The notes under the pieces are model-generated. The model saw only the letters and a program-made list of their open reading frames with translations. It ran no database searches and had not been told where the DNA came from. Source: a phage. Taken from it: a stretch of DNA of 64,000 nucleotides. Shown piece after piece: positions 6,875 to 18,786 of this stretch (its first letter is position 1; each line of letters begins with the position of its first letter). The stretch lies in NCBI GenBank assembly GCA_025677605.1, contig GCA_025677605.1_4110.1. One strand, written 5' to 3'. The position numbers were made by a program, and so were the translations under genes.

Positions 6875-7198
6875 TTACATATCTTTCTTACGTTTTACAT
6901 CGTTGTAGCGAACTGTGATTTCTTTGTTGATCTCTTTCTCAATGTGGTGAATAACTTTTTCTTTCGGGTTGAAACCTATAACCGTTTCTTTAATGATCTC
7001 CAAGCCCGTGTATTCGCCTTGTGTACCGTAACCGTAAGTAAAGGTTTCATGTCCCAGGTCTTCCCAGCGGTCGCCAATCAACGCAGACACGTAGCAAGAG
7101 TGGTAAGTATTGCCGTGTGAATCAGTCCACCGATTAACTTTAATGTCAAAGGATGTTACAATTTTCAGTTCTACTTTCTGGGTAAGGATCATAGCCAT
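6875..7198 (-). CDS. hypothetical protein (107 aa), paralog of 12672..13016
   Basis: shares GNTY, YGYG and C-terminal DVKRKKD with 12672..13016. Confidence 0.6.
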   Translation of the reverse strand: MAMILTQKVELKIVTSFDIKVNRWTDSHGNTYHSCYVSALIGDRWEDLGHETFTYGYGTQGEYTGLEIIKETVIGFNPKEKVIHHIEKEINKEITVRYNDVKRKKDM

Positions 7199-7286
7199 TT
7201 TTATTTCTCTCTTTTAGTTAGGAGGGGAACCGTTTCCCCTCACTCGATGTAAACTATTATACAGTACTAAGATACTTTGTCAATAC

Positions 7287-7469
7287 TTATTTTTTGGAAA
7301 GTTTACGCATTAATTCTACGCTTTCTTGTGAACGTTTTGCTACCTGGCAATCTGCATGGGCAGTAAACATTTTTGTATAGTCTGACGCTTTGCCACCGAA
7401 CCGAGCGGCACGTTCACGGGCACTTGGAACTAATACAATTTCTTTCTTACAGATAGTGCACTTAGCCAT
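7287..7469 (-). CDS. hypothetical small Cys-containing protein (60 aa)
   Basis: track ORF; CxxC near N-terminus; 5' region near-identical to that of 6875..7198. Confidence 0.55.
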   Translation of the reverse strand: MAKCTICKKEIVLVPSARERAARFGGKASDYTKMFTAHADCQVAKRSQESVELMRKLSKK

Positions 7470-7556
7470 TTTTATTTCTCTCTTTTAGTTAGGAGGGGAA
7501 CCATTCCCCTCACTTGATGTAAACTATTATACAGTACTAAGATACTTTGTCAATAC

Positions 7557-7832
7557 TTAAGTATTGTAAATGTCGTGAATAGTGATAAAGTTTTTACGAC
7601 CGTAAACCTGTAAATCAGTATCAATGTAGTGCTTATCAAGTACATCCTCGACGCTTAACGCGGTGTCGTGAATATCTTCATAGAATTGAGGATCTACAAT
7701 CTTGCTTAAGTCATCCGGCGTTAACTTATCGTTAAGCCATTGAACCGCCTGGATATCTGCTTCACGTTTCCAGTCTTGCAGGTTAGTAGTCAGTACTTGC
7801 TCGATTTCGTTAGCTGTCAGTAGAATCCGCAT
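7557..7832 (-). CDS. hypothetical protein (91 aa)
   Basis: track ORF; tandem promoters and conserved leader element upstream. Confidence 0.6.
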   Translation of the reverse strand: MRILLTANEIEQVLTTNLQDWKREADIQAVQWLNDKLTPDDLSKIVDPQFYEDIHDTALSVEDVLDKHYIDTDLQVYGRKNFITIHDIYNT

Positions 7833-7909
7833 TTTATGTTTCCTTATCAGTAGTTGATGTAAGTATTATACTCGTTTACTTTCTATTGTCAAACTATTTT
7901 ATCAGGGGA

Positions 7910-7972
7910 GTTTTTCGTATGTCTTACTCCTGGACTACTTAACGGGGTTACTTGTTTCATTCCCCGTCCTGA
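7910..7972 (-). repeat. conserved leader/small-RNA-like element, copy A
   Basis: near-identical to 17947-18021 and related to 14888-14948; lies between two tandem promoters. Confidence 0.5.
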
Positions 7973-8147
7973 TGTAAAACATTATACTTGATTCTAAGTA
8001 CAATGCAAGTACTTTTTTAAAAATAGTTTTCAGTACTAGCCACCAGCAAACAATAGATACATTTATGCACCCGGTGGGCTAGTTTTTGTCTATGCATATA
8101 TAATAGCAAAGGGACTGACCGGAGTCAATCCCTTTTTTCAATTTATT

Positions 8148-8297
8148 TTATGCCTCGCGAGGGTTGCGATATGTGATAGCGTTCGGGTACATTTGTTTTA
8201 AGTTATTCCACGCCTGGTTAACACTGTATCCGCTGGACCGTATCAGTTGATGCATACCTTTACCCAAAAACGTAACTTCGAAAATGTATTCTTTCAT
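8148..8297 (-). CDS. hypothetical small protein (49 aa)
   Basis: hand-translated; AAGGGGG RBS; ATG overlaps stop of 8294..8467. Confidence 0.4.
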   Translation of the reverse strand: MKEYIFEVTFLGKGMHQLIRSSGYSVNQAWNNLKQMYPNAITYRNPREA

Positions 8298-8467
8298 GCT
8301 ACGGCCCCCTTGTCGGCTTTACCTTTACGCCAGGACGTTACTAATTGTTCGCGTTGCCATAAGTCGAGTGATACAAAAAGTTTTGCGGTATCACCCTTCG
8401 GATATTCGCCAGTAGTACCCATCCGATAAAACAAATCTTTCAGTACTGACAATTCTACATGGATCAT
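8294..8467 (-). CDS. hypothetical small protein (57 aa)
   Basis: hand-translated; AGGAG RBS 8 nt upstream of ATG. Confidence 0.45.
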   Translation of the reverse strand: MIHVELSVLKDLFYRMGTTGEYPKGDTAKLFVSLDLWQREQLVTSWRKGKADKGAVA

Positions 8468-8645
8468 TTTAGATAACTCCTGCTTTGCTTAAGTAAACTA
8501 ATACGGCCTGTACTGCCATAATGATTGCAATTACTACTATGAACGGATTCATGTGCATAACTGTTACCCTTATATGGTGGGGAGAAAACTTCTCCCCTTG
8601 ATGTAATTAATTATACAGTACTGTGATACTTTGTCAAATACTTTT

Positions 8646-8858
8646 TTAATCTTTCAGCCAATGATCTTGGATGAATTTTTCACCGAAGCCTTGCTGCATG
8701 GATTGTAACAGGCGTTCACGGTGTGCGGCGGCAAACTGCTCAGTACTATGCGTTACACCTGGTTGATATCTGGATTCACCATTGGGGGCGATGTATTGTA
8801 CATCCCACGGTTTAGCGTTAGTATCAGACCATTTACGAACGATTAGTTGACCTTGCAT
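8646..8858 (-). CDS. hypothetical protein (70 aa)
   Basis: track ORF 8646..8888 trimmed to ATG at 8856-8858 (MQGQLIV) after GAGGAAAG. Confidence 0.55.
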   Translation of the reverse strand: MQGQLIVRKWSDTNAKPWDVQYIAPNGESRYQPGVTHSTEQFAAAHRERLLQSMQQGFGEKFIQDHWLKD

Positions 8859-8944
8859 TTTTCTTTCCTCAGTACTGGGGAGAATCATTTCTCCCCTTCA
8901 TGTAACTTATTATACAGTACTATAATCTATTGTCTAGTACTTTT

Positions 8945-9133
8945 TTAAAGTTTATGTATCAGTTCTTTATCTAAGCGATAGCGTACATTATTAATAGTAA
9001 CGGCATTGTTTTTAATGCTACGCTGTACAGGTCCACCAGCAATAACAAACGTTGCCTTATTACCCCGAACAATGATAGCACTTCCTGGATTGCCGTATTC
9101 ATCTTGTACTAAAATACTTGATAAGTTTTCCAT
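8945..9133 (-). CDS. hypothetical protein (62 aa)
   Basis: track ORF; second ATG has better RBS spacing. Confidence 0.5.
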   Translation of the reverse strand: MENLSSILVQDEYGNPGSAIIVRGNKATFVIAGGPVQRSIKNNAVTINNVRYRLDKELIHKL

Positions 9134-9293
9134 TTTCATTTCCTCTTAGTAGGGGAAGATGTTTCCCCTTCATGTAAAACATTATACACTATCTTTCAGT
9201 ACTGTCAATTACTTTTTAGTACTTATTTAAACGCTCTCAATCGCATTCTAACGAGCTAATCTATTTTGTAGTACTATCGGATAGGTATATACT

Positions 9294-9323
9294 AAAAAGC
9301 CCACCAGCGTTAACCAGTGGGCT
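9294..9323 (-). terminator. intrinsic terminator (AGCCCACCAG..CTGGTGGGCT + U-run)
   Basis: inverted repeat with A-run on plus strand, directly after the 9320..9463 stop. Confidence 0.55.
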
Positions 9324-9463
9324 ATAATCTTACATCTTGCGGATAATCTTAACAGTATCTTTCACCGATTTACCGTCTTGCTGGCATTGTTCGATCATTG
9401 CGTATTGTTCTGCGGTCAGATCTTCGCCAGTTTTTGCCAGTACTGCTTCGATGAATGAATCCA
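9320..9463 (-). CDS. hypothetical small protein (47 aa)
   Basis: hand-translated; RBS AAGAGAGAAA; terminator follows. Confidence 0.45.
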
Positions 9464-9572
9464 GTGCGATCATTTTGTTTCTCTCTTAGGTTAAGTTAAC
9501 TACTGTTTATAAAACTTATTATACAGTACTATCAAACTATGTCAATATCTTTAATAGTACTGGTAATATATT

Positions 9573-9752
9573 TTAGCGGTAGTCGTCGTATGCTTTATTC
9601 ACCTGGCGAATGTAACTTTCAAAGGCTTCGTCTACCGTTTCATACTCCCGAACATAATCACCATAGGAAACTACATACATCCCTTTTTGATCTTCAAACG
9701 TCATGATGATAGAATCCAGGCCGATGATTTCAGTTTTTGCGATGATAGCCAT
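9573..9752 (-). CDS. hypothetical protein (59 aa)
   Basis: track ORF 9573..9815 trimmed to ATG at 9750-9752 (MAIIAKT); upstream codons read through promoter. Confidence 0.5.
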   Translation of the reverse strand: MAIIAKTEIIGLDSIIMTFEDQKGMYVVSYGDYVREYETVDEAFESYIRQVNKAYDDYR

Positions 9753-9834
9753 TTTTAATTCCTTAGTAGTGTAGTTGATAAAATCTATTATGCCAGTACT
9801 ATCAATCTTTGTCAATAGTACTGTGATAATATTT

Positions 9835-10047
9835 TTAATCGATAATGGTTAATGTAAAGTTATAATCACCGCATCGATATAGCACGTTATTCCCAAATGT
9901 TCCAACCAATCGCACATCACACAAAACGCCAGTTTTTTCTTTTACTTCCTTGATACTTGTAACTCCTGTAATATCTTTATTAAAGTATTCATGGTCTGAA
10001 AATAAAACTTGTTTTGCATTTTTCAATTTCGACCGGATATTAGCCAT
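9835..10047 (-). CDS. hypothetical protein (70 aa)
   Basis: track ORF; promoter + hairpin upstream. Confidence 0.6.
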   Translation of the reverse strand: MANIRSKLKNAKQVLFSDHEYFNKDITGVTSIKEVKEKTGVLCDVRLVGTFGNNVLYRCGDYNFTLTIID

Positions 10048-10142
10048 TTTGTTTTCTCTCTCTGTTAGTGGGGAGAACTATTCTCCCCTTGATGTAAACT
10101 ATTATACAGTACTATAATCTATTGTCAAACTATTTTTTAATA

Positions 10143-10484
10143 TTATTCGAAATCTTCTGGACCGGACTGATAATCATCTTCACCGTATGCACTTTCTAAC
10201 TTCTCGCCAGTGCAATCATCAGTTAGTGAGTCATCCTCATAGTTCACGTCTACGCCCGTGATGTAAAACTGGCTATCGTATGGATCATTGAAATTAATTT
10301 TCTGAATGTTTACAATAACTGTATTGATGCCCAGGACACCGCCATCAGCCGTTACAAAGTACTGATAGTTTTCACATCCACCACTATTGAAACCGTAATT
10401 GATTTCGGCCCGACCATCATTTAAACGCAGTGCCTGAGCGATGAATTCGTTTTCAAAGTTAGATTGAGCAATTGCAATAGTCAT
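10143..10484 (-). CDS. hypothetical acidic protein (113 aa)
   Basis: track ORF; promoter + hairpin upstream. Confidence 0.6.
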   Translation of the reverse strand: MTIAIAQSNFENEFIAQALRLNDGRAEINYGFNSGGCENYQYFVTADGGVLGINTVIVNIQKINFNDPYDSQFYITGVDVNYEDDSLTDDCTGEKLESAYGEDDYQSGPEDFE

Positions 10485-10583
10485 GATTCGTTTCCTTATT
10501 ACCAGGGGAAACGGTTTCCCCTTGCTATGTAAAACATTATACTTGATTCTAAGTACAATGCAAGTACTTTTTGCAAAATACTT

Positions 10584-10766
10584 TTAATCCCTTTGATACT
10601 CACATAACGCCATATCATACGCAATTGACGCTGATTTGAAATCATCGTGTCGCTCAATCTCTTTCATGTCAACATAGATGATCCATAGGTTTACGTCTTC
10701 CTGGCGTATGATAACGGCAGGTTTACCGATGATATGTGATGCCGCTAGTTCGATTGGATTAAACAT
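10584..10766 (-). CDS. hypothetical protein (60 aa)
   Basis: track ORF. Confidence 0.55.
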   Translation of the reverse strand: MFNPIELAASHIIGKPAVIIRQEDVNLWIIYVDMKEIERHDDFKSASIAYDMALCEYQRD

Positions 10767-10885
10767 TGTAGTACTCCTTATTAGATTGATATATTTTATT
10801 TACACTTCCGCACCCTGTGGGCTAGTGAGCTATCTCTCAATGAATATATAATAGCAAAATGGCTGACCGAAGTCAACCACTTTTT

Positions 10886-11023
10886 TCATTTATTTTTAGC
10901 TTTTAGAATCGCCGCTTTTCGCGTCATGCCTTGCTTGATGTACTCCTTTACTTTCGCTTTACGTGCTTTCGCTTTATCTGCTTTCGTTTTAGGAGTACTG
11001 TAAATTAAACCGTTAGGATTCAT
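10886..11023 (-). CDS. hypothetical small basic protein (45 aa)
   Basis: hand-translated; weak RBS. Confidence 0.3.
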   Translation of the reverse strand: MNPNGLIYSTPKTKADKAKARKAKVKEYIKQGMTRKAAILKAKNK

Positions 11024-11109
11024 TTAAATCACCATAAAGAATAGATAGGTTACTAACAATGCCGCGATCAATGCACCGATCACCGCCGAACTGTAATAAG
11101 CCAATGATT

Positions 11110-11262
11110 TCATTTTTTAGCCTGGAAGTAATGTTTAATTTGTGCGGCGGTCAATGCACAATTACGCAGGAAGTTTTCTGTATAACTGCGACGAGTACTG
11201 AAAGAAAATTGACCTTTGCCGTTGCCGATAGTAACATCAAACCGAGCATTATATTGTTTCAT
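11110..11262 (-). CDS. hypothetical small protein (50 aa)
   Basis: hand-translated; AGGAGAA RBS 6 nt upstream. Confidence 0.45.
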   Translation of the reverse strand: MKQYNARFDVTIGNGKGQFSFSTRRSYTENFLRNCALTAAQIKHYFQAKK

Positions 11263-11346
11263 TTTGATTCTCCTAGTATCAGGGGAGAACCATTTCCCCC
11301 CCCTCTATGTAAAACATTATACAGTACTAAAAACTAATTGCAAGTA

Positions 11347-11493
11347 CTATTTTTTAGATTTACGCAAACTTTCTACCATCTCAGGAGTAAGGCCCGGCGG
11401 GTAGGAAACCACTTCATCAACGAAACGTAAAGGGAATACCCCAGCGAAAGGTGAACATGCTTTCTTAGTATTACTCTTTTTTGATGCTTTCAT
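11347..11493 (-). CDS. hypothetical small protein (48 aa)
   Basis: hand-translated; promoter + hairpin at 11500-11580. Confidence 0.4.
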   Translation of the reverse strand: MKASKKSNTKKACSPFAGVFPLRFVDEVVSYPPGLTPEMVESLRKSKK

Positions 11494-11575
11494 TTCATAT
11501 TCCTTAATTAGTGGGAAGTACTATTTCTCCCCTTCATGTAAAACATTATACAGTACTAAAAACTAATTGCAAGTA

Positions 11576-11818
11576 TTATTTTAAACTTTGTGCGACTAAT
11601 TTCGCACGGTCAATCATATACTGCCATTTTTTGATCTCTTCTGGTAGAAAACGATATTCACCAATAACAATAGTGATACACTTTTCAGCCTGGTCAATGT
11701 ATGTAGTGTCAATCTCGACTTGAACGGGTACACGTTCGCCGTAATCAGTGCCAGGGATAATACAATCATTATCATAAGTAACAGTAGTAGCAGTGTCTTT
11801 GATTAAAATTGTTTCCAT
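11576..11818 (-). CDS. hypothetical protein (80 aa)
   Basis: track ORF. Confidence 0.6.
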   Translation of the reverse strand: METILIKDTATTVTYDNDCIIPGTDYGERVPVQVEIDTTYIDQAEKCITIVIGEYRFLPEEIKKWQYMIDRAKLVAQSLK

Positions 11819-11888
11819 TATACTTTCCTCGTTAGGTGTAAGGGGAAAAAGTTTCCCCTCTATGTAAACAATTATACAGTACTGAAAA

Positions 11889-12098
11889 CTAATTGCAAGT
11901 ATTATTTTCTAAAAAATGATTGTATGCTGCATCAACCACTCTTTCGATAACATACGCCAACGGCACGTATCCAACTACATGACTACAATAGAAAGGACTA
12001 CGATTAGAATCATCGTATGCAAATACTTTACCAGGTACGGCATCAATCACATACATATTAACCTTTAAGATGTCGATCTTATCCTGTACAGTAAGCAT
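11889..12098 (-). CDS. hypothetical protein (69 aa)
   Basis: track ORF 11889..12125 begins at a TTG; first ATG at 12096-12098 used. Confidence 0.5.
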   Translation of the reverse strand: MLTVQDKIDILKVNMYVIDAVPGKVFAYDDSNRSPFYCSHVVGYVPLAYVIERVVDAAYNHFLENNTCN

Positions 12099-12099
12099 A

Positions 12100-12270
12100 T
12101 TACGCCGCCTTATCAGTACTAGCAACCGGACGGATACGGGCCATCGCCTGGGCTTGTTCTACGCTGTATTGTTCGTATAGTCTGCATTCTTCCGGTGTAG
12201 GAATAGCATCAATACGTTTCATTGGTTTAATGATGCTTTCAACTTCATTCAGTACTTGATTAACGTTCAT
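12100..12270 (-). CDS. hypothetical small protein (56 aa)
   Basis: hand-translated; GAGGATAA RBS; stop abuts next ATG. Confidence 0.45.
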   Translation of the reverse strand: MNVNQVLNEVESIIKPMKRIDAIPTPEECRLYEQYSVEQAQAMARIRPVASTDKAA

Positions 12271-12321
12271 GGTATTATCCTCAATATTAGCGGCCTAAAT
12301 CAACCGCTAACGATGTTTTGA

Positions 12322-12591
12322 TTAATAGGTGTATGGTTGACGCTCAAACAATGAATAGACGTTATACGCCCCGCTAATGGGCTTCGCTGGCAAATCAATT
12401 TTATATTGTTCACGCTTAAAGATAATAAAACGGCAATTGTTTTTTACATCAAAATTGATTGAACGTTCCAGGAGTTTTCCATCGTGTACAAATACAAGAT
12501 AACCGCTTGGTACTTGTTTTGTAGTACTGGTTGCAACCATAGACCGACGAACATGCGTACCTGCATCGATTAAAGTACTGATATTTTTCAT
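12322..12591 (-). CDS. hypothetical protein (89 aa)
   Basis: track ORF. Confidence 0.55.
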   Translation of the reverse strand: MKNISTLIDAGTHVRRSMVATSTTKQVPSGYLVFVHDGKLLERSINFDVKNNCRFIIFKREQYKIDLPAKPISGAYNVYSLFERQPYTY

Positions 12592-12671
12592 TATACTATC
12601 CTCTTAAGTTAATTTAATTTCTTTCCCCTATGCAGACACTATATCAAAGTATCTGCATAAAGTAAAGCTAA

Positions 12672-13016
12672 TTAAAGATCTTTTTTGCGTTTAACATCAG
12701 TTACCGAACTGTAAACAGTGATATTATTGTCACGGCAAAAACGGGAAAGATAAGAACCGCGTAAAAACTCTTTACCTTCCATATCAATAACCTTGCTAAA
12801 TTCATCCATTGCTACGGTGTCAAAGTGATCCCCGTATCCATATTGGAACGGCACGTTTACTACTTCAATAAAATTACCATCAATTTCTACGTCTACACTT
12901 AAAGAGAAATAAGTGTTACCATATGAAGCCTGGAACCAACGCCGAGCGGCAATATGTACAACTTCAACAGAAGACAGGTTGATATTTTGTGCTGTGATAG
13001 TGTTGATGTTAGCCAT
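12672..13016 (-). CDS. hypothetical protein (114 aa), paralog of 6875..7198
   Basis: track ORF; shared motifs with 6875..7198. Confidence 0.6.
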   Translation of the reverse strand: MANINTITAQNINLSSVEVVHIAARRWFQASYGNTYFSLSVDVEIDGNFIEVVNVPFQYGYGDHFDTVAMDEFSKVIDMEGKEFLRGSYLSRFCRDNNITVYSSVTDVKRKKDL

Positions 13017-13096
13017 TTTTAGTTTCCTCAGTTGTTTTGATAAAATCTATTATGCCAGTACTATCAATCTATGTCAATAGTACTGTGATAATAATT

Positions 13097-13309
13097 TTAC
13101 TTACTTTCTTTCGATGCTTTATGTTGTGCAACTGCCATTACTACATCAGCACGAACAAAGTTTTTAACCGTGTCAGTGTAATAATTGATTGCATCGTCTA
13201 TATCTGCGAACGTCCGATACATACCGCACCAAGATACTTTATAACCTGCTTTCACTTGTTCCAGCTTAACCAGTGATTTGTTTACTTTGATTTTAGTAAT
13301 GATAGCCAT
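13097..13309 (-). CDS. hypothetical protein (70 aa)
   Basis: track ORF; promoter variant TTGACA-17-CATAAT upstream (three copies of this promoter region). Confidence 0.6.
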   Translation of the reverse strand: MAIITKIKVNKSLVKLEQVKAGYKVSWCGMYRTFADIDDAINYYTDTVKNFVRADVVMAVAQHKASKESK

Positions 13310-13391
13310 TTTTTGTTTCCTCTTAGTTGTCTTGATAAAATCTATTATGCCAGTACTATCAAACTATGTCAATAGTACTGTGATAATATTT

Positions 13392-13535
13392 TTACTTACT
13401 TTTTGCTTTCTTTGCTGCTTCCACCTGGTCGGCCCACTCTTTACCCCATACTTGAGCATTATAGTGATACTGACAAAGAGCAACGCCCCGCTTCAAACCA
13501 GTAATAGATTTTTTACCACATTGACAAGTTTTCAT
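13392..13535 (-). CDS. hypothetical small Cys-containing protein (47 aa)
   Basis: hand-translated MKTCQCGKK...; promoter + hairpin upstream. Confidence 0.45.
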   Translation of the reverse strand: MKTCQCGKKSITGLKRGVALCQYHYNAQVWGKEWADQVEAAKKAKSK

Positions 13536-13622
13536 TTTAGTTTCCTCTTAGTGGGGAGAACCATTTTCTCCCCTTGATGTAATGTATTATACTTTATCTG
13601 ATTTACTTTGCAAGTACTTTTT

Positions 13623-13850
13623 TTAATTTAATTCATCCAGGCAAAGGATACGCTCAACGCCCAAATCAGTTAAACTAATAGACGGCACTTGATAGGTTTC
13701 AACGTATTCTACACTCGCCCACTGACCGAACTCATTCACCGCCCAGGTATTCATTGCAAAATGTAATTCCGCACCTTTCTTATTAGTAATTACAGCAACA
13801 GTAGAAGAATTGCCAGTAGTACCAGATACGCGAGTGATTACGATAGCCAT
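13623..13850 (-). CDS. hypothetical protein (75 aa)
   Basis: track ORF. Confidence 0.6.
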   Translation of the reverse strand: MAIVITRVSGTTGNSSTVAVITNKKGAELHFAMNTWAVNEFGQWASVEYVETYQVPSISLTDLGVERILCLDELN

Positions 13851-13920
13851 TGTTTTGATTCCTATTCAGTAGTTGATGTATGTATTATCGCAGTACTTAA
13901 AACTATTGTCAAACTATTTT

Positions 13921-14073
13921 TTAAAGTTTATCAATGATTGATGCCGTTTCATTGATAGTCTTGCCGTGTTTTGCACACGCGATAACTGCTTTAAATTCCT
14001 TTGATGACCAATCTTTTTTACTGCATACTGACATTACTTGTAAAGTGAAACAATCCAGTTCATAAGTATTCAT
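13921..14073 (-). CDS. hypothetical small protein (50 aa)
   Basis: hand-translated; TGAGGATAT RBS. Confidence 0.4.
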   Translation of the reverse strand: MNTYELDCFTLQVMSVCSKKDWSSKEFKAVIACAKHGKTINETASIIDKL

Positions 14074-14177
14074 CTTTATATCCTCAGTTAGTTAAGGTGT
14101 CTCGCCTTGATGAAATTAATTATACGCTAATCTCTTAATCGTGCAAGTACTTTTTATTAGTTTTTGCAAAATACTTT

Positions 14178-14269
14178 AAACGCCCGCAATCGCATTCTAA
14201 CGACCTTAACGCCACCAGCTAGGGCGATGCATCAGATAATCAGTTTAATGCGTTAGAATCGATTCTAGG
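14178..14269. repeat. conserved motif AAACGCCCGCAATCGCATTCTAACG with inverted partner CGTTAGAATCGATTCTAGG
   Basis: motif also at 9229-9253 and 19431-19456, each just distal to a terminator. Confidence 0.45.
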
Positions 14270-14300
14270 CGGTGCTGGGGGCATGGTAAACGATAAACAC

Positions 14301-14327
14301 AAAAAAGCCCACTGTTTAAGGTGGGCT
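14301..14327 (-). terminator. intrinsic terminator (AGCCCAC..GTGGGCT + U-run)
   Basis: inverted repeat with A6 on plus strand, after the 14349 stop; same design at 15031-15058. Confidence 0.55.
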
Positions 14328-14348
14328 AGTGATTCAGTACTTTAATTG

Positions 14349-14831
14349 TTATGCTTCAACTTTGCGATGAGCTTCGATCCATTCCTCGCGAGTCAATCCG
14401 CTTTCTTTGATAGCATCCAGTACTACGGCAATGCAGTTACCGCGTACTGGTACAGTGTATTCCTCGCCATTATCCAGAACTACCGGCACGCGTTCCTGAA
14501 TCCATTTTTTAGCTTTTACTTCTGGCTTGTCTTCCCCGTATTTCGCTGCCAGGGCTTTACGTGCCATTTCGGTTACTACTTCCAGATCAAGCCCAGCGAC
14601 GGCGGCGTTAATATCTTCAATCGTTTTCTGCAATTCAGCTTCGCGTGCTGCCTTCTCAGCTTCAAGTGCCGCCGCTTTATTAGCTTGTAGTTCTTTCGCT
14701 TCGCTGTACGCAATGTTAAAATTGTTGCGTACTGCTTTCATGGTATCGCTATCCAGTTCAGCCAGGATCTCAGCCGCTACGTTAGTTTCATTTGCTACCA
14801 GTGCTTTGATGAATGATTTTACATTAGCCAT
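14349..14831 (-). CDS. hypothetical Ala/Glu-rich protein (160 aa)
   Basis: track ORF 14349..14846 trimmed to ATG at 14829-14831 after TGAGGAAT. Confidence 0.6.
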   Translation of the reverse strand: MANVKSFIKALVANETNVAAEILAELDSDTMKAVRNNFNIAYSEAKELQANKAAALEAEKAAREAELQKTIEDINAAVAGLDLEVVTEMARKALAAKYGEDKPEVKAKKWIQERVPVVLDNGEEYTVPVRGNCIAVVLDAIKESGLTREEWIEAHRKVEA

Positions 14832-14887
14832 TATATAATTCCTCAATTAAAGTTTAGTTTACGTTTATTAGTGTATCAAAGTTTTCT

Positions 14888-14948
14888 TGACGTGTCCAGT
14901 TTTTCGTTCGACTTACTGGCGGTCTACTTAGTGTTCCCCGTCTTGATG
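14888..14948 (-). repeat. conserved leader element, degenerate copy C
   Basis: related to 7910-7972 and 17947-18021. Confidence 0.4.
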
Positions 14949-15030
14949 TAATACATTCTACGCTTTTCTTCGGTAATGTCAACTACTTTTTTAAAACTAT
15001 TTTCAAAGTATCTCAGTACTACACCACTAC

Positions 15031-15058
15031 AAAAAAAGCCCACTGTTTAAGGTGGGCT
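15031..15058 (-). terminator. intrinsic terminator (AGCCCAC..GTGGGCT + U-run)
   Basis: same inverted repeat as 14301-14327, downstream of 15076..15375. Confidence 0.55.
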
Positions 15059-15075
15059 ATTGATTCAGTACTAGA

Positions 15076-15375
15076 TTATAAACAGTTAATTACTCCTGTG
15101 TGCGTTACTTTCTCAGTATCCATAACCGTGACCGAACCGCGTTTTTTCTTCGCATCATAATAAATTGTTGTGCTACCTTTCGCATCTTCTTCATGGAACG
15201 GGCCATTTTTAAATGCTTCTGGCTGTAATTCCAGATCCTTTAAAACAATCTCGCCAGTACTTTCATCGGTCATTGCTACGGTGCACTGAATGAATTTATC
15301 ACCAGGTACATCTAACGACGCATTAACAGCGAAAGAGGAAACAGATAAAGCCAGGGCGATGATTGCTACTTTCAT
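15076..15375 (-). CDS. putative secreted protein (99 aa)
   Basis: N-terminal signal-peptide-like MKVAIIALALSVSSFAVNA. Confidence 0.6.
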   Translation of the reverse strand: MKVAIIALALSVSSFAVNASLDVPGDKFIQCTVAMTDESTGEIVLKDLELQPEAFKNGPFHEEDAKGSTTIYYDAKKKRGSVTVMDTEKVTHTGVINCL

Positions 15376-15460
15376 TTGATTATCCTTAGTTACCAGGGGA
15401 ACCGTTCCCCCCCTTGCTATGTAAAATATTATACAGTACTAAAAACTAATTGCAAGTACT

Positions 15461-15697
15461 TTATGATTTTTTATAAAACATTTCGGCAGTGATATTTTTA
15501 CCCGTTGGTTGTACTTTATCCAGGATTTTTTGATGCCCGGACCGTCCAAATGAATATGATCCGTAAACCGTAAACCAGTAGTTACCCTCAGTGTTTACAT
15601 GTACAGCACAATAGGGAACGCCCCGCGATTCATCACTAGTAAAGTGTGCTACCGTTCCCGTTACATTCGAAGACGTTGATTTGATTTGTTCGACCAT
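15461..15697 (-). CDS. hypothetical protein (78 aa)
   Basis: track ORF. Confidence 0.6.
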   Translation of the reverse strand: MVEQIKSTSSNVTGTVAHFTSDESRGVPYCAVHVNTEGNYWFTVYGSYSFGRSGHQKILDKVQPTGKNITAEMFYKKS

Positions 15698-15805
15698 TTT
15701 CTTATTCCTTAGTTACCAGGGGAACCGCTCCCCCTATGCAAAACATTATACGCGTTTAAAAACTATTAGCAAGTATTTTAATAAAAAGTATTTGAAAAAT
15801 AGTTC

Positions 15806-15934
15806 TTGACAACTGCATCCAATACTGGCATAATTACTACATAAAGACAAAACAGTCTCTAACCCACCGGGTGCATAGATCCGTCTATTAAATGATTCAG
15901 TACTGAAAAAAGAAAGGGGATCAATTGATCCCCT
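15806..15934 (+). ncRNA. candidate small plus-strand transcript (promoter TTGACA-17-CATAAT, conserved CTAACCCACCGGGTGCATAG element, hairpin at 15915-15934)
   Basis: plus-strand promoter in an otherwise minus-strand block; no ORF; ends at a hairpin + T-rich stretch. Confidence 0.3.
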
Positions 15935-15939
15935 CGTTG

Positions 15940-16161
15940 TTATTTTGTAAGGTATAAACAGAAGTCACCTTTATTTGCTACGCCGCCAGTGTAACGCGAT
16001 GAATAGTTAGAAACGTCCTGGACTTCTGCTATTACCAGTGTATCATCATTCAATTCGTCGCAGAAGCAAACGGCTGGATCTTTTACGCCGATATTGTCGG
16101 CATGTTCCCGCATAGATTTAACCAGTGCTTCAAGTTGGGAAAGGGTAGTAATGTTAGCCAT
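15940..16161 (-). CDS. hypothetical protein (73 aa)
   Basis: track ORF 15940..16191 trimmed to ATG at 16159-16161 (MANITTL). Confidence 0.55.
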   Translation of the reverse strand: MANITTLSQLEALVKSMREHADNIGVKDPAVCFCDELNDDTLVIAEVQDVSNYSSRYTGGVANKGDFCLYLTK

Positions 16162-16246
16162 TTTATTTTCCTCATTACCAGGGAGAACCATTTCTCCCCT
16201 CTATGTAAACCATTATACAGTACTAAAAACTAATTGCAAGTACTTT

Positions 16247-16450
16247 TTAATTTAATTGCTTAAAAACATACTCAAAGACACGACGCACATCATTGATCAT
16301 CGCCTGGCGGTTAGCAGGTAACGCATCAGGATCGCCACTATCCCAGGCATTGATAAAACTCCCCAAATCATGATAGATTTTATTCTGTAAGCCGATTAAC
16401 TGCAATTCTTTTTCTTCAAGCTCTTTGATACGTTCAATTAAATCACTCAT
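16247..16450 (-). CDS. hypothetical protein (67 aa)
   Basis: track ORF 16247..16486 trimmed to ATG at 16448-16450 (MSDLIERI). Confidence 0.55.
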   Translation of the reverse strand: MSDLIERIKELEEKELQLIGLQNKIYHDLGSFINAWDSGDPDALPANRQAMINDVRRVFEYVFKQLN

Positions 16451-16467
16451 TATATAATCCTTAGTAC

Positions 16468-16752
16468 TTAACTGTAAGATCCGCAACGGTCGCAGTAGTG
16501 CCCGTCCTCGTCATCGTCAACGAATTGACCGACGAAATGATCTACTTTCGCTTTCAGGTTATTATAATCGTTTTCTACTTCCTTTAAACGCTTCTGGTAG
16601 TATTCCAGTGCTTTAAGATATGCCGCATCAGCAGTTTTCTCCTGCATAGCTAAATTCATGCCACGCGTTTCATCGTACAGCCAAAAACCATCGGTGCACT
16701 GGCTAATAGATAATGACTTGCTTAGTACTGTATAGTTAATTACTTTGCTCAT
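16468..16752 (-). CDS. hypothetical protein (94 aa), C-terminal CDRC motif
   Basis: track ORF. Confidence 0.6.
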   Translation of the reverse strand: MSKVINYTVLSKSLSISQCTDGFWLYDETRGMNLAMQEKTADAAYLKALEYYQKRLKEVENDYNNLKAKVDHFVGQFVDDDEDGHYCDRCGSYS

Positions 16753-16837
16753 TAGATAATCCTCAGTAAAGGCGGGAACTATTCCCCGCCTCGATATAAA
16801 GTATTATACGTTAATCTAACTACAATGCAAGTACTTT

Positions 16838-17110
16838 TTAGTTTTTTAATTCTTTTACTGCATCAGGTGCGACAGAACCATCAATGTATTGAACATCGTT
16901 TTCAACTTCACGGGCGGCATCATTCAGCAGATCAAAATTAAATTCCATTTCTTCCAGATCATCAAAATCAGGCTCATAACCATTAATTGTTGAATAAGTC
17001 CAAGTACCTTTTTCATAAGTCACGACACTTACATCAGGGAAGAAATCTTGCACATGATCCATTGCATCCCGAACCAGTTGATGTGCAGTTGTGATATTTA
17101 AAGTTTTCAT
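16838..17110 (-). CDS. hypothetical acidic protein (90 aa)
   Basis: track ORF. Confidence 0.6.
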   Translation of the reverse strand: MKTLNITTAHQLVRDAMDHVQDFFPDVSVVTYEKGTWTYSTINGYEPDFDDLEEMEFNFDLLNDAAREVENDVQYIDGSVAPDAVKELKN

Positions 17111-17203
17111 TTTGTTACCCTTTTAGTGTGAGCGGGGAACCACTCCCCGCCTCGATATAAAGTATTATACGCTTTTAAACTTAGTATGCAAGTACTTTTT
17201 AAA

Positions 17204-17878
17204 TTAATATTCGATTGATTCTACTACGCCATCAATAACATTGAATTGATATTCGTTACCCTCAATCAGTGCCGTAATGTTTTCAGTAGTGAATTGATCC
17301 TCATATGCATTCTCTAAATCACGGTACAACTTGCGGGATAATTCACGAATAGTTTCAGTGAGTAGTTCCTCAAGCTCATTAACTAACGCTTCTTGTTTTG
17401 CGGTTAAATCAGTGTAAGCCGATTCAATGTACCCGCTTACAGTGTTTTCATGCGAGTAGTTGGAGTGAGAACGCTTTACACTCATTGCCAAATCATCTTC
17501 ATTCAGCAGGTGACGGATTGAGCGATACTTAGTTAATGCTCTAACCTTGCGTAAAAACTTCTCAGCGTCAACGTGGTCAGTACTAATTGATGCACCGTCA
17601 CCCTGCGACCAAAAACCACTGAATTGTATTTCAGCGTCATTAATGCCATATTCCGGTAGTACTGTTTCTTTATAGTATTCAATTTCACTTTCAGAAAAAT
17701 AATCGTCGTTTAAGTTTTTTTCACGTTCCCGAACCAGTTCGATAGCTGACGTTTGTTGTTCTGCGTTCAATTCAGAAAAATCCATAACGAAAGTAGTATT
17801 AGTGACAGTTTTCGCTTTGCAACCCTCATTCAATTCAGAAAAATCCATAACGAAAGTAGTAGTAGTGATAGTTTTCAT
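17204..17878 (-). CDS. hypothetical acidic protein (224 aa) with N-terminal tandem repeat
   Basis: two direct copies of TTTFVMDFSELN encoded by a duplicated segment of about 57 bp at 17770-17880. Confidence 0.6.
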   Translation of the reverse strand: MKTITTTTFVMDFSELNEGCKAKTVTNTTFVMDFSELNAEQQTSAIELVREREKNLNDDYFSESEIEYYKETVLPEYGINDAEIQFSGFWSQGDGASISTDHVDAEKFLRKVRALTKYRSIRHLLNEDDLAMSVKRSHSNYSHENTVSGYIESAYTDLTAKQEALVNELEELLTETIRELSRKLYRDLENAYEDQFTTENITALIEGNEYQFNVIDGVVESIEY

Positions 17879-17946
17879 TTTGTAACTCTCATTCAGTAGT
17901 TGATGTAAGTATTATACGCTTTTAAAAACAATTGTCAAACTATTTT

Positions 17947-18021
17947 ATCAGGGGAGTTTTTCGTGTGCCTTACTCCTGGGCTACTTAACGGGGAGTTACT
18001 TATTTCGTTCCCCGTCCTGAT
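17947..18021 (-). repeat. conserved leader/small-RNA-like element, copy B
   Basis: near-identical to 7910-7972. Confidence 0.5.
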
Positions 18022-18197
18022 GTAAAACATTATACGCCTTTAAACATAGTTTGCAAGTACTTTTTATCAAATAGTTTTCAGTACTGGCATTGTACTTAAT
18101 CACTTTACTATAGATACACTTCCGCACCCTATGGGCTATCGCCTTGTGTCCGGCTTGTAAGTATTATCTCACTAAGCCGGATAATGGTCAAGTACTT

Positions 18198-18464
18198 TTA
18201 TTCAAGTACTGCAATCTTTTTAGTACTGTACACGGTAACACGGTTTCCCTTGCGGTCGTGCTTTATTTCTACCACTCGACGCGATACACTATCAGGACTT
18301 TTTAACGCCGCTAACCAGTACTGAATTGATCGGGCTGTACTTTGCTTTACTACGGCCCAACGTTTACCCCTGGCTGATTGTACGCCCATATCTTTAAACG
18401 TTGCACCGTCAACCTTTGCCGCTTGCCGAGCTTGTTCACGCGTCGCAAAGTATATAATATTCAT
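18198..18464 (-). CDS. hypothetical protein (88 aa), paralog of 6384..6788
   Basis: track ORF 18198..18518 trimmed to ATG at 18462-18464 (MNIIYFATRE). Confidence 0.55.
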   Translation of the reverse strand: MNIIYFATREQARQAAKVDGATFKDMGVQSARGKRWAVVKQSTARSIQYWLAALKSPDSVSRRVVEIKHDRKGNRVTVYSTKKIAVLE

Positions 18465-18546
18465 GCTGTTACCCCTATCGTTGTTGTATAAAAGAAATCT
18501 ATTATAAAGTACTATCACCGTGCAATAGTACTTTTAATCTATTCTC

Positions 18547-18786
18547 TTACATGCCAACCATTGCAGCACGGATCGCAGTAGTGCTATACTTGAATCCGTC
18601 CGGTGTTTTATCTTGTCCAGTCTGTTCTAAAAATAGCATCATATGACGGGCCGCATCATTTCGATTAGTGTTAGCGGCAATAAAGTCCAGGGCCAACCGG
18701 TATAATGATTCATCGTTATTAATCCAAAGGCTTACATTCCATTGAGTTTTGTTTTTGTGACCTAAGAACATTTTTGATTTAGCCAT
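18547..18786 (-). CDS. hypothetical protein (79 aa)
   Basis: track ORF. Confidence 0.6.
   Translation of the reverse strand: MAKSKMFLGHKNKTQWNVSLWINNDESLYRLALDFIAANTNRNDAARHMMLFLEQTGQDKTPDGFKYSTTAIRAAMVGM

What the first reader, a model, noticed from the sequence alone, without database searches (positions are those of the whole stretch)
7895..18021. Conserved 60-80 nt leader element present in three copies between tandem promoters
The segment TCAGGGGAGTTTTTCGTATGTCTTACTCCTGGACTACTTAACGGGGTTACTTGTTTCATTCCCCGTCCTGAT (7910-7972) recurs almost exactly at 17947-18021 and in diverged form at 14888-14948. Each copy lies downstream of one sigma70 promoter and upstream of another, and contains internal complementary segments (ACGGGG..CCCCGT). 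It could be a small RNA, an attenuator or a riboregulator controlling the downstream genes 7557..7832, 17204..17878 and 14349..14831.
Basis: seen in the sequence. Interest (0 to 1): 0.55.

Follow-up and report, generated by a model that had tools for sequence, protein, structure and literature searches.

The report
Conserved early-leader RNA fold, shared with T7
The three repeats are real copies of a structured non-coding RNA made right after strong host-type promoters in a jumbo coliphage. The same undescribed RNA motif lies between the A1 and A2 promoters of phage T7 and in hundreds of other virulent enterobacterial phages, so it probably engages a host factor at the very start of infection.

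Summary
Three copies lie on the minus strand at 7973-7901, 18021-17947 and, shortened, 14947-14889. Each starts within a few bases of the predicted start site of a sigma70 promoter. The window is an Asteriusvirus-like jumbo coliphage early region.

The conserved core is a single-stranded UAAGUAG, then four bases, then a 4-5 bp helix (P3) with the loop UAAGNCNNACGAANA, all closed by an outer helix. The core recurs in Justusliebigvirus, Vequintavirinae, other Rak2-like jumbo phages and T7-like phages, including T7 itself (nt 536-592). P3 is paired in all 62 distinct sequences, with five stem types. The outer helix has at least 11 different complementary sequences. A covariance model built only from T7-like phages finds exactly these three sites in the window.

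No Rfam family, tRNA, E. coli or bacterial-genome counterpart was found. There is no terminator, no RBS-sequestering fold and no conserved ORF, so an attenuator or riboregulator of the downstream gene is not supported.

My best reading is a self-contained early-leader RNA domain recognised by a host factor. Whether it acts in trans or on the transcribing polymerase is unresolved.

The parts
7981..8008 (-). Promoter P1 of copy 1: -35 TTGCAT 8008-8003, 16-nt spacer, -10 TATAAT 7986-7981, A-rich UP-like stretch upstream. Predicted start near A7973.
   Evidence: Read from the minus-strand sequence. Aligned with copy 3's promoter. The start site is inferred from the -10 spacing, not measured.
7901..7973 (-). 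Element copy 1 (73 nt). Outer helix P1 7973-7968 with 7906-7901 (AUCAGG/CCUGAU). Hairpin P2 7967-7962 with 7947-7942 (ACGGGG/CCCCGU, 14-nt loop). Single strand J 7941-7931 (UUAAGUAGUCCA). Hairpin P3 7930-7926 with 7911-7907 (GGAGU/ACUCC, loop AAGACAUACGAAAA).
   Evidence: MFE -19.7 kcal/mol, z -2.8, three-way junction. CM hits of 55.6 bits (R1) and 27.3 bits, E 3.5e-5, with the T7-only model R2.
7865..7892 (-). Promoter P2 of copy 1 (TTGACA-16-TATAAT, 12/12). It serves gene 7557..7832 and has no leader hairpin.
7557..7832 (-). Downstream gene of copy 1, 91 aa, phrog_14947, unknown function. The same gene follows the element in Justusliebigvirus muut.
18029..18056 (-). Promoter P1 of copy 3 (TTGCAA-16-TATAAT).
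17947..18021 (-). Element copy 3 (75 nt). P1 18021-18016 with 17952-17947. P2 18015-18009 with 17994-17988 (7 bp, one extra A-U pair). J 17987-17977. P3 17976-17972 with 17957-17953.
   Evidence: MFE -22.3 kcal/mol, z -3.2. CM hits of 51.6 bits (R1) and 21.9 bits, E 8e-4 (R2).
17911..17938 (-). Promoter P2 of copy 3 (TTGACA-16-TATAAT, 12/12), serving gene 17204..17878 (224 aa, phrog_5162, unknown function).
14955..14982 (-). Promoter of copy 2 (TTGACA-16-TAGAAT, 11/12). It lies directly after terminator 15058-15037.
14889..14947 (-). Element copy 2, a minimal form without P2. Closing helix 14942-14939 with 14892-14889 (GACG/CGUC). J 14930-14920 (UAAGUAGACCG). P3 14919-14916 with 14899-14896 (CCAG/CUGG, loop UAAGUCGAACGAAAAA).
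   Evidence: CM hits of 52.2 bits (R1) and 32.6 bits, E 1.7e-6 (R2, the best of the three). Helices. The isolated fold alone is not significant (z -0.9).
14349..14831 (-). Downstream gene of copy 2, 160 aa, phrog_27871/20181, unknown function. It is bracketed by near-identical terminators at 15058-15037 and 14327-14306. Homologues in Munch-like, K64-1 and Erwinia Hallingskeid phages are also preceded by the motif.

Best explanation
Each copy is a short non-coding RNA domain transcribed by the host sigma70 RNA polymerase from its own strong immediate-early promoter. It folds at, or within a few bases of, the 5' end of the transcript.

It belongs to a previously unclassified motif family. The invariant part is a single-stranded (Y)UAAGUAG-N-C, a 4-5 bp helix P3 capped by the loop UAAG-N-C-NN-ACGAA-N-A, and an outer helix of free sequence that ties the module together. 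An extra hairpin P2 is optional. It gives a three-way junction in this phage and an H-type pseudoknot in T7-like phages.

Unrelated phages carry the motif (T7-like podoviruses, Rak2-like jumbo myoviruses, Vequintavirinae, Stephanstirmvirinae). As far as this work shows, what they have in common is their enterobacterial hosts and early transcription by the host polymerase. I therefore infer that the conserved unpaired nucleotides are read by a host component.

I favour a self-contained RNA module, in effect its own tiny gene placed upstream of a gene that has its own promoter. It would act as an abundant early RNA ligand or decoy for that host factor, not as a switch for the gene behind it.

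Shown here: the repeat, the family, the helices and their covariation, the position after promoters, and the absence of terminator, ORF or RBS logic. Inferred: the transcription start sites, the RNA's stability and 3' end, the host partner, and the mode of action (trans or cis).

My confidence that this is a genuine conserved structured RNA of this family is about 0.9. My confidence in the 'self-contained host-factor ligand' mechanism is about 0.4. The confidence number given for this explanation (0.45) refers to the statement as a whole, mechanism included.
For: - Three copies against 0.02 expected by chance.
- A model built only from 14 T7-like sequences finds exactly these three sites in the window.
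- The same cassette occurs at 86-99% identity in 45 phage records. These include Justusliebigvirus and Vequintavirinae, where different genes lie downstream.
- The core is present in T7 at nt 536-592, between promoters A1 and A2. That 57-nt T7 stretch matches 491 phage records.
- The core is also present in LIMEzero, K64-1, Hallingskeid and a Munch-like contig.
- P3 is fully paired in all 62 distinct sequences, with five stem types. In the 24-sequence alignment P3 is 100% paired and 3 of its 4 pairs change on both sides. For the whole tested structure (P3 plus one extra candidate pair) the covariation score is 0.456 against 0.089 for shuffles, with 0 of 500 shuffles reaching it; controls with the partner slid by 1-3 columns give 37-50% paired.
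- RNAalifold predicts the same helix independently.
- The closing helix has at least 11 different complementary sequences. In T7-likes there are 12 P2 stems and 7 pseudoknot helices, all complementary.
- Non-Watson-Crick pairs are 8 G.U against 0 A.C, so the structure is RNA of the sense strand.
- Folds of copies 1 and 3 and their relatives have z scores of -2.5 to -3.8.
- In copies 1 and 3 the downstream gene has its own consensus promoter after the element. In T7 the element lies upstream of A2 and A3, whereas boxA lies downstream of all three promoters.
- The motif is absent from E. coli genomes and from 185,579 bacterial species genomes, apart from two T7-like contaminant contigs.
Against: - There is no transcript data. 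Start sites and a discrete 3' end are not shown, and no terminator follows the element, so it may exist only as the 5' part of longer mRNAs.
- No binding partner is identified, and no similarity to any known protein- or ligand-binding RNA was found.
- The copy-2 type is syntenic with one gene family across four Rak2-like lineages. That would fit a cis role for that gene.
- In some T7-like phages the motif lies only 52-72 nt upstream of an rrn-type boxA. That fits a co-transcriptional role instead.
- Within the jumbo, Vequintavirinae and Justusliebigvirus subgroup the outer helix AUCAGG/CCUGAU never varies. Its pairing there rests on the analogy with other lineages and on thermodynamics.
- In a longer context the outer helix is not in the MFE structure.
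Confidence: 0.45

Rival explanations
1. Cis-acting co-transcriptional element. The nascent RNA domain stays with, or loads a factor onto, the host RNA polymerase that made it. The polymerase then resists pausing, Rho or terminators. This would work like the HK022 put RNAs or a nut/rrn-type leader.
For: - The element begins at about +2 to +10 of sigma70 early transcripts (about +39 in T7). It is 55-75 nt with two helices and needs no phage protein common to the carriers.
- put RNAs are about 70 nt, have two stem-loops, lie just downstream of an early promoter and act alone on RNAP (PMC9378689).
- T7-like relatives carry a perfect rrn-type boxA (GCTCTTTAACAATCTGG) 52-470 nt downstream. In L045, LIMEzero and L044 it is only 52-72 nt away.
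- The early region of the window is dense with hairpins and terminators that long transcripts would have to cross.
Against: - The element lies upstream of further strong promoters (A2 and A3 in T7; P2 here). Most transcripts of the downstream genes would escape modification, whereas boxA in T7-likes lies downstream of all promoters.
- No boxA occurs near the window's copies.
- Copy 2 drives a single gene that ends at a strong terminator.
- No sequence or structure resemblance to put could be established.
Confidence: 0.25
2. 5'-end stabiliser or insulator. The outer helix pairs the first nucleotides of the transcript and protects it from 5'-end-dependent decay (RppH, RNase E). The simple GGGGAGAA..TTCTCCCC hairpins may do the same for the neighbouring genes.
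For: - In copies 1 and 3, L045 and Hallingskeid the closing helix starts within about 2-8 nt of the predicted start site.
- Almost every other early gene here has a 5' hairpin at the same position (families D1-D13).
Against: - A stabiliser needs only a stem. It does not explain invariant unpaired nucleotides kept across phage families.
- In T7 the motif starts about 39 nt from the 5' end. From my own recollection, not checked here, the leader is also cut away from the 0.3 mRNA at an RNase III site.
- P2-initiated transcripts of the same gene lack the element.
Confidence: 0.12
3. A DNA-level feature of the downstream promoter (UP element, curved DNA or activator site). Alternatively, the element is merely a mobile recombination cassette with no RNA function, like the promoter/stem-loop cassettes (PeSL) of T4-like phages, and its similarity reflects recent horizontal transfer.
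For: - In copies 1 and 3 and in the relatives read here, a promoter or promoter-like site follows within 0-50 bp; after copy 2 it is only a weak 9/12 match. In T7 the A-tract falls at about -54 to -49 of A2.
- The three coliphage families that share the 86-99% identical cassette also share promoter-plus-hairpin modules, which could mediate exchange.
- PeSLs are described as recombination sites (PMC2839356).
Against: - The distance to the next -35 varies from 0 to about 50 bp, so the A-tract is not at a fixed UP position.
- Three helices show compensatory changes. G.U is tolerated but A.C is not. That is an RNA signature.
- The core is conserved between lineages with no other detectable DNA similarity (T7-likes against jumbo phages), whereas the flanking promoter spacers differ.
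Confidence: 0.08
4. A ligand-sensing aptamer or a small self-cleaving ribozyme. The compact fold, the invariant junction and loop nucleotides, and the permuted strand topology in different lineages would fit either.
For: - The same core is mounted on different helical topologies: pseudoknot in T7-likes, three-way junction here, plain internal loop in copy 2, K64-1 and LIMEzero. Permuted connectivity of this kind is common among self-cleaving ribozymes (my recollection, not checked here).
- From memory, the hairpin-loop pseudoknot followed by UUAAGUAG recalls the pistol ribozyme's hairpin, pseudoknot and UUAAAUAG linker. This is unverified.
Against: - No Rfam ribozyme or riboswitch model matches at E<=5-10, even in short stretches.
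- There is no expression platform.
- The helix order differs from pistol as I remember it.
Confidence: 0.07

Closest known systems
The T7 A1-A2 inter-promoter segment (T7 nt 536-592) and its counterparts in T3, Kayfunavirus and other T7-like phages
   Same: It has the same core sequence and P3 helix, closed by a further helix, and lies on the transcript of a host sigma70 early promoter with another promoter following. A model built from these sequences alone retrieves the window's three copies.
   Different: In T7-likes the closing helix uses the loop of the upstream hairpin, giving a pseudoknot, and the motif starts about 39 nt into the A1 transcript. Here it is a three-way junction (copies 1 and 3) or a stem with a large internal loop (copy 2), starting at about +2 to +6. 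I found no paper or Rfam entry describing the T7 segment as an RNA element.
HK022 putL/putR polymerase-utilisation RNAs
   Same: These are about 70-nt, two-helix RNAs just downstream of early sigma70 promoters. They act without any phage protein, through a host component (RNAP beta' zinc-binding domain) (PMC9378689).
   Different: No sequence or structure similarity was established. put elements are not followed by further promoters. Antitermination by the present motif is untested, and its position upstream of A2/A3 or P2 argues against it.
PeSL promoter/stem-loop cassettes of T4-like phages
   Same: These are repeated sigma70 early promoter plus stem-loop modules that flank small genes of unknown function in plastic early regions and are shared by recombination (PMC2839356, PMC4122927). 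The window's general promoter + GGGGAGAA..TTCTCCCC hairpin + RBS modules look like this.
   Different: PeSL stem-loops are simple G/C hairpins lying within or over the promoter, and they act as terminators. The present element is a multi-helix fold downstream of the start site, with invariant unpaired nucleotides, and it is conserved across phage families.
lambda nut and rrn boxB-boxA antitermination leaders
   Same: These are hairpin-containing leader elements downstream of early or tandem promoters. T7-like relatives combine the motif with a perfect rrn-type boxA further downstream.
   Different: No boxA accompanies the window's copies. The P3 loop is 14-17 nt and, from memory, is not like boxB. 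No N-like protein is implied.
Phage RNA decoys (pseudo-ToxI antitoxin mimics, RNA anti-CRISPRs)
   Same: These are precedents, cited from my own knowledge, for short structured phage RNAs that act by binding a host defence protein.
   Different: There is no similarity to ToxI (no Rfam match) or, from memory, to E. coli CRISPR repeats. No partner system is known.

Membership tests
Early-leader UAAGUAG/P3 motif (family defined in this work; includes T7 nt 536-592) | Single-stranded (Y)UAAGUAG followed by N-C-N-N | tested here: met
   All three copies have it. AAGUAG and the C are invariant in the 24-sequence cross-family alignment.
Early-leader UAAGUAG/P3 motif (family defined in this work; includes T7 nt 536-592) | P3 helix of 4-5 bp that covaries, with the loop UAAG-N-C-NN-ACGAA-N-A | tested here: met
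   GGAG/CUCC in copies 1 and 3, CCAG/CUGG in copy 2. P3 is 100% paired, with 3 of 4 pairs changed on both sides.
Early-leader UAAGUAG/P3 motif (family defined in this work; includes T7 nt 536-592) | An outer helix of free sequence enclosing J and P3 | tested here: met
   AUCAGG/CCUGAU (6 bp) in copies 1 and 3, GACG/CGUC (4 bp, weaker) in copy 2. At least 11 variants occur elsewhere.
Early-leader UAAGUAG/P3 motif (family defined in this work; includes T7 nt 536-592) | Recognised by a model that contains none of the window's own or closely related sequences | tested here: met
   R2, built from 14 T7-like sequences, gives E 1.7e-6, 3.5e-5 and 8e-4 and no other hit in 64 kb.
Early-leader UAAGUAG/P3 motif (family defined in this work; includes T7 nt 536-592) | Lies on the transcript of a sigma70 early promoter, within about 40 nt of its start | tested here: met
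   Promoters at 8008-7981, 18056-18029 and 14982-14955. The start sites are inferred, not measured.
Intrinsic terminator / transcription attenuator | G+C-rich hairpin followed by a U-tract, with a competing antiterminator fold | tested here: not met
   No terminator-like site overlaps any copy. The helices are followed by AUAAAAUAG or ACACGUC. Leader folds show no significant alternative structure.
Riboswitch | Conserved aptamer coupled to an expression platform (terminator or RBS sequestration) | tested here: not met
   A conserved fold is present, but there is no platform. In copies 1 and 3 the RBS lies about 60 nt further on, behind a second promoter. No Rfam riboswitch matches. Ligand binding cannot be tested here.
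HK022 put RNA | About 70-nt two-stem RNA immediately downstream of an early sigma70 promoter | tested here: met
   Position and size are comparable. This is only a resemblance of layout.
HK022 put RNA | Homology to put sequence/structure, and RNAP beta'-ZBD-dependent antitermination | not tested
   No put model or sequence was compared. The activity needs experiments.
PeSL cassette (T4-like phages) | Strong sigma70 promoter with a simple stem-loop within or over the promoter that terminates upstream transcription | tested here: not met
   The element lies downstream of the start site, is multi-helical and has no terminator features. Other modules in the window do resemble PeSLs, for example hairpin 8135-8108 over a -35.
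nut / rrn antitermination site | boxA (GCUCUUUAACAA-like) next to a hairpin | tested here: not met
   No boxA enrichment in the window (8 loose matches against 7.3 expected), and none within 1.2 kb downstream of any copy. T7-like relatives do have boxA.
tRNA / tmRNA | Cloverleaf or tRNA-like domain detectable by ARAGORN | tested here: not met
   0 genes in the whole window.
Any Rfam 15 family (including ToxI, pistol, hammerhead, twister) | Covariance-model match | tested here: not met
   No hit at gathering score in the window. No hit on the motif at E<=10 in the window stretch 7800-8100 holding copy 1, or at E<=5 in seven related loci, T7 included.

The most novel reading that the evidence does not exclude
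The motif is a dedicated immediate-early RNA effector shared by most virulent enterobacterial phages that start infection with the host polymerase, T7 included. It would bind one conserved host protein or RNA, for example a defence nuclease or toxin, an RNA-decay or chaperone factor, or the transcription machinery itself. It would then be a new class of phage-encoded RNA host-takeover or anti-defence factor, unnoticed in the best-studied phage genome.
Probability: 0.3. Interest if true: 0.9.

Novelty: new variant of a known kind. Interest (0 to 1): 0.7.

Why it matters
T7's early promoter region has been a workhorse of transcription research for fifty years. A covarying pseudoknot between A1 and A2, shared with jumbo myoviruses, rV5-like and phAPEC8-like phages, is in neither Rfam nor the literature I could search.

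If it is functional, it marks a host interaction that very different phages all need in the first minute of infection. It is also directly testable in T7 by deletion, compensatory mutants and pull-down.

It also matters practically. A1-derived templates and phage-therapy genomes carry this element without annotation. The motif is a clean marker of immediate-early transcription units in unannotated enterobacterial phage genomes.

Tried and rejected
- **Mini-ORF.** Copy 1 could encode a 23-codon ORF starting at an ATG in the P2 loop. That ATG is ACG in copy 3 and in most relatives, so I rejected it.
- **tRNA or tmRNA-like gene.** ARAGORN finds nothing.
- **Known RNA family.** Rfam gave nothing at gathering score. 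Only a chance PutA-thermometer hit (E = 6) lies partly over the next promoter.
- **Host origin or mimicry of a host locus.** There is no match in 5,426 E. coli genomes. The pattern scan of 185,579 species genomes gave only chance hits plus two T7-like contaminant contigs.
- **boxA/nut site in the window.** Not present. The 1-mismatch boxA-like site at 22125 lies on the plus strand, with no nearby plus-strand promoter or ORF seen in the short stretch read, and such matches are no more frequent than chance.
- **UP element of the next promoter.** The distance to the -35 varies from 0 to about 50 bp, and the helices covary.
- **H-NS-like downstream gene as a possible autoregulator.** Pfam and PDB gave nothing meaningful.
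- **Apparent new phage family (Enterobacter phage vB_Ecl_MII_002, 78.7 kb).** The record carries a ~19.7-kb annotated repeat and its length is about twice that of a T7-like genome, so I took it for a doubled T7-like assembly rather than a new family; I did not verify this.
- **G.U against A.C asymmetry on P3 and the closing helices.** Too few non-Watson-Crick pairs to be informative. It worked only on P2.
- **Literature.** Searches by sequence string and by topic found only template listings and unrelated papers.
- **MAFFT alignment of T7-like sequences (A2).** It mis-registers P2, so I counted P2 and pseudoknot pairs by script instead.

Full report
**What the window is.** The 12 kb around the finding matches Asteriusvirus jumbo coliphages (PBECO4, 121Q, G17; the best is E9.1 at 91.8% identity over 82%). 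From about 1 to 19 kb all plausible genes are small and on the minus strand. Almost every one is preceded by the same module: an A-rich stretch, a sigma70 promoter (TTGACA or TTGCAA, 16-17 nt, TATAAT), a G/C hairpin of the type GGGGAGAAnnnnTTCTCCCC a few bases after the predicted start, an RBS, then the gene (families D1-D13). The finding therefore has to be read on the minus strand.

**Checking the observation.** The three copies exist.
- Copy 1 is 7973-7901, copy 3 is 18021-17947 and copy 2 is 14947-14889.
- Copies 1 and 3 are 90.7% identical. Copy 2 is about 60% identical and lacks the whole ACGGGG..CCCCGU hairpin.
- A degenerate 20-mer from the core matches three times against 0.02 expected.
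- Copies 1 and 3 lie between two promoters. The downstream one is a perfect 12/12 consensus (7892-7865 and 17938-17911).
- Copy 2 follows a good promoter (14982-14955) directly after a terminator. Only a weak promoter-like site follows it.

**Anatomy in this phage.** RNA folding of copies 1 and 3 gives a three-way junction.
- An outer helix AUCAGG/CCUGAU starts at about the first or second transcribed base.
- It runs without a spacer into hairpin P2 (ACGGGG/CCCCGU, 14-nt loop).
- An 11-nt single strand UUAAGUAGNCCA follows.
- Hairpin P3 (GGAGU/ACUCC, loop AAGNCANACGAAAA) abuts the 3' strand of the outer helix.
- The energies are -19.7 and -22.3 kcal/mol, with z scores of -2.8 and -3.2.

Copy 2 keeps the single strand and P3 with a different stem (CCAG/CUGG). 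It closes them with a 4-bp helix, GACG/CGUC. No U-tract follows any helix and no terminator-like site overlaps a copy. Folding the whole leader up to the start codon shows no significant alternative or RBS-sequestering structure. A 23-codon ORF in copy 1 loses its ATG in copy 3.

**Relatives, first circle.** The 81-nt element recurs in 45 phage records at 86-99% identity. All Asteriusvirus relatives carry it. So do Justusliebigvirus (muut, outra, EmilieFrey) and Vequintavirinae (A73, W70, A7_1, A5-4), which belong to other families. In each, the layout is promoter, element, second promoter. The gene behind it differs:
- muut carries the homologue of 7557..7832;
- A73 and EmilieFrey carry other small genes, with an ordinary 5' hairpin after the second promoter.

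The promoter spacers differ while the element is kept. The cassette is therefore exchanged between coliphage families, and the element is its conserved part.

**Relatives, second circle.** Pattern scans and BLAST with a diverged copy from a 366-kb metagenomic contig (Salmonella phage Munch-like) led to Klebsiella phage K64-1, Erwinia phage Hallingskeid and the T7-like Pantoea phage LIMEzero.

I then checked T7 itself. Nucleotides 536-592, between the E. coli promoters A1 (start 498) and A2 (start 626), read CACCGGGGUCAACCGGAUAAGUAGACAGCCUGAUAAGUCGCACGAAAAACAGGUAUUGACAAC. That 57-mer matches 491 phage records: T7, T3, Kayfunavirus, and Klebsiella, Yersinia, Citrobacter and Salmonella T7-likes. 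A pattern scan of IMG/VR gave 60 loci, about 56 of them genuine.

The shared core is (Y)UAAGUAG-N-C-NN, a 4-bp P3, the loop (A)UAAG-N-C-NN-ACGAA-N-A, and a closing helix.

**Is it structure or only sequence?**
- In 62 distinct sequences P3 is fully paired, with five stem types: CCUG/CAGG 44, GGAG/CUCC 10, CCAG/CUGG 6, CCUG/CGGG 1 and CUUG/CAAG 1.
- On a 24-sequence cross-family alignment P3 is 100% paired and three of its four pairs change on both sides. For the whole tested structure (P3 plus one extra candidate pair, which pairs in only about 70% of sequences) the covariation score is 0.456 against 0.089 in shuffles, with 0 of 500 as high. Sliding the partner by 1-3 columns drops pairing to 37-50%. 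RNAalifold predicts the same helix.
- A closing helix is found in nearly every sequence (only a weak 4-bp match in one), with at least 11 different complementary sequences.
- In T7-likes the 5' strand of that helix is the loop of the upstream hairpin P2, so the fold is an H-type pseudoknot. It has 12 different P2 stems and 7 different pseudoknot helices, all complementary.
- In real P2 helices the non-Watson-Crick pairs are 8 G.U and 0 A.C. This is what RNA of the promoter-sense strand predicts, and what a DNA cruciform or the antisense strand does not.

The usual caution applies: many sequences are related by descent, so counts of sequences are not counts of events. The number of distinct compensated stem types is the better measure.

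**Membership without circularity.** A covariance model from all lineages finds exactly three sites in the window (E about 1e-12), but the window's copies were in its seed. A second model was built only from 14 T7-like sequences. It also finds exactly these three sites and nothing else in 64 kb on both strands, with E values of 1.7e-6, 3.5e-5 and 8e-4.

**What it is not.**
- No Rfam family matches at gathering score. Nothing matches the motif at E<=10 in the window stretch holding copy 1, or at E<=5 in seven related loci, T7 included.
- There is no tRNA or tmRNA.
- Nothing similar occurs in 5,426 E. coli genomes. In 185,579 species genomes only two T7-like contaminant contigs match. In the collections searched here, the motif turned up only in genomes of virulent phages of Enterobacterales.
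- I found no paper describing it. Searches by sequence string returned only template listings. Topic searches, including the CBB jumbo-phage paper's transcription section, returned nothing relevant. Older subscription literature on T7 is outside the searchable library, so prior mention of a hairpin there cannot be excluded.

**How it most likely works.** These points are shown:
- it is an RNA-level fold;
- it lies at or near the 5' end of transcripts from strong host-type promoters in the first-expressed region;
- its unpaired nucleotides are invariant across phage families, while its helices are free to change;
- it is independent of the identity of the downstream gene.

The rest is inferred. 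The carriers are phages of different families, and I know of no protein they share.

Two layouts argue that the element is its own product and not a controller of the next gene. In copies 1 and 3, and in A73 and EmilieFrey, the gene has its own consensus promoter after the element. In T7 the element lies upstream of A2 and A3, whereas the rrn-type boxA that T7-likes also carry lies downstream of all promoters, where a cis-acting signal should be.

I therefore favour an abundant immediate-early RNA ligand or decoy for a host factor, at about 0.4. By inspection only, the P3 loop reads as a UAA/GAN-type internal-loop module (UAA opposite GAA) closed by a G-C pair and a pentaloop N-C-NN-A. That would make it a structured docking or recognition surface and not a floppy loop.

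**Rivals.**
- **A put-like or nut-like co-transcriptional role (about 0.25).** The position right after the promoter supports it. So does the proximity of boxA in the most compact T7-like leaders (52-72 nt in L045, LIMEzero and L044), and the precedent of HK022 put. The following promoters weaken it, as does the absence of boxA here.
- **A plain 5' stabiliser (about 0.12).** It does not explain the invariant unpaired bases or T7's +39 position.
- **A DNA-level UP or activator site, or a function-less recombination cassette (about 0.08).** The covariation, the G.U bias and the variable distance to the next -35 contradict it.
- **An aptamer or ribozyme (about 0.07).** The permuted topology keeps this open, but there is no platform and no model match.

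One observation pulls towards a cis role and stays unexplained. The copy-2 form is syntenic with one gene family (phrog_27871/20181) in Asteriusvirus, Munch-like, K64-1 and Hallingskeid phages.

**Comparison with known systems and novelty.** The window's copies are members of a family that includes the T7 A1-A2 segment, but that family is itself undescribed as far as I can tell. In layout it resembles put RNAs, and in genomic behaviour it resembles PeSL cassettes. It meets neither family's defining features. I file it as a new variant of a known kind, namely structured leader RNAs of phage early transcripts. The possibility that it is a new class of early RNA effector is scored separately.

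**Verdict.** Interest is 0.7. The element itself is modest. Its presence as a covarying pseudoknot in T7 and across four phage lineages is unexpected and immediately testable.

Noticed in passing
whole window, e.g. 18079-18086, 8616-8623, 21429-21551: The 8-bp palindrome CAGTACTG occurs 56 times in 64 kb against 0.96 expected from shuffles. In the stretches I read (about 7-22 kb) it lies in intergenic and promoter-proximal DNA. AGTACT also lies next to or inside promoters in K64-1, Munch-like and Hallingskeid loci. It may be a regulator site or a modification/restriction-related signal.
   Followed up: partly
window 1-19000, minus strand (e.g. 8579-8654, 10070-10145, 16159-16248): Nearly every small early gene carries the same module: UP-like A-tract, sigma70 promoter, 5' leader hairpin GGGGAGAAnnnnTTCTCCCC, RBS (D1-D13). 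The same modules occur in Vequintavirinae, Justusliebigvirus and Munch-like loci. They resemble the PeSL cassettes of T4-like phages, but the hairpin lies after the start site.
   Followed up: partly
window 8135-8108, 4843-4816, 1770-1743, 10883-10856 (minus strand): A 12-bp-stem hairpin AAAGGGATTGACTCCGGTCAGTCCCTTT is repeated four times. Each copy overlaps the -35 of a TTGACT-17-TATTAT promoter. This is a composite terminator/promoter, as described for PeSLs.
   Followed up: no
window 8052-8082, about 18110-18140, inverted at 15859-15889; also L072 about 885-915: A further conserved motif, ATAGATACAnTTnnGCACCCnnTGGGCTA, lies upstream of promoter P1 in copies 1 and 3. It occurs in both orientations and also in a Munch-like contig. 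It contains a short hairpin followed by a T-rich run on one strand (I5).
   Followed up: no
T7-like loci, e.g. L017 (T7) 809-825, L014 (LIMEzero) 927-943, L045 about 4166: Most T7-like phages carry a perfect rrn-type boxA (C/T)GCTCTTTAACAATCTGG in the early leader, 52-470 nt downstream of the motif. In T7 it lies after all three promoters. This suggests Nus-factor antitermination of T7-group early transcription. I found no mention of it in the searchable literature.
   Followed up: partly
window 17753-17878 (minus strand, 5' end of gene 17204..17878): A tandem duplication of about 62 bp repeats the start region and the N-terminal peptide (KTxTxTTFVMDFSELN) of the 224-aa gene downstream of copy 3.
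   Followed up: no
window 15058-15037 and 14327-14306: Two near-identical intrinsic terminators (AGCCCACCTTAAACAGTGGGCT + T-run) bracket the unit formed by promoter, copy 2 and gene 14349..14831. It looks like an inserted cassette.
   Followed up: no
T7 L017 782-808: Just upstream of T7's boxA lies a hairpin GGUC-UAACGAAACCU-GACC followed by UAAGA. Its loop resembles the P3 loop (UAA..ACGAAA). It may be a degenerate second copy of the P3 arm (by eye).
   Followed up: no
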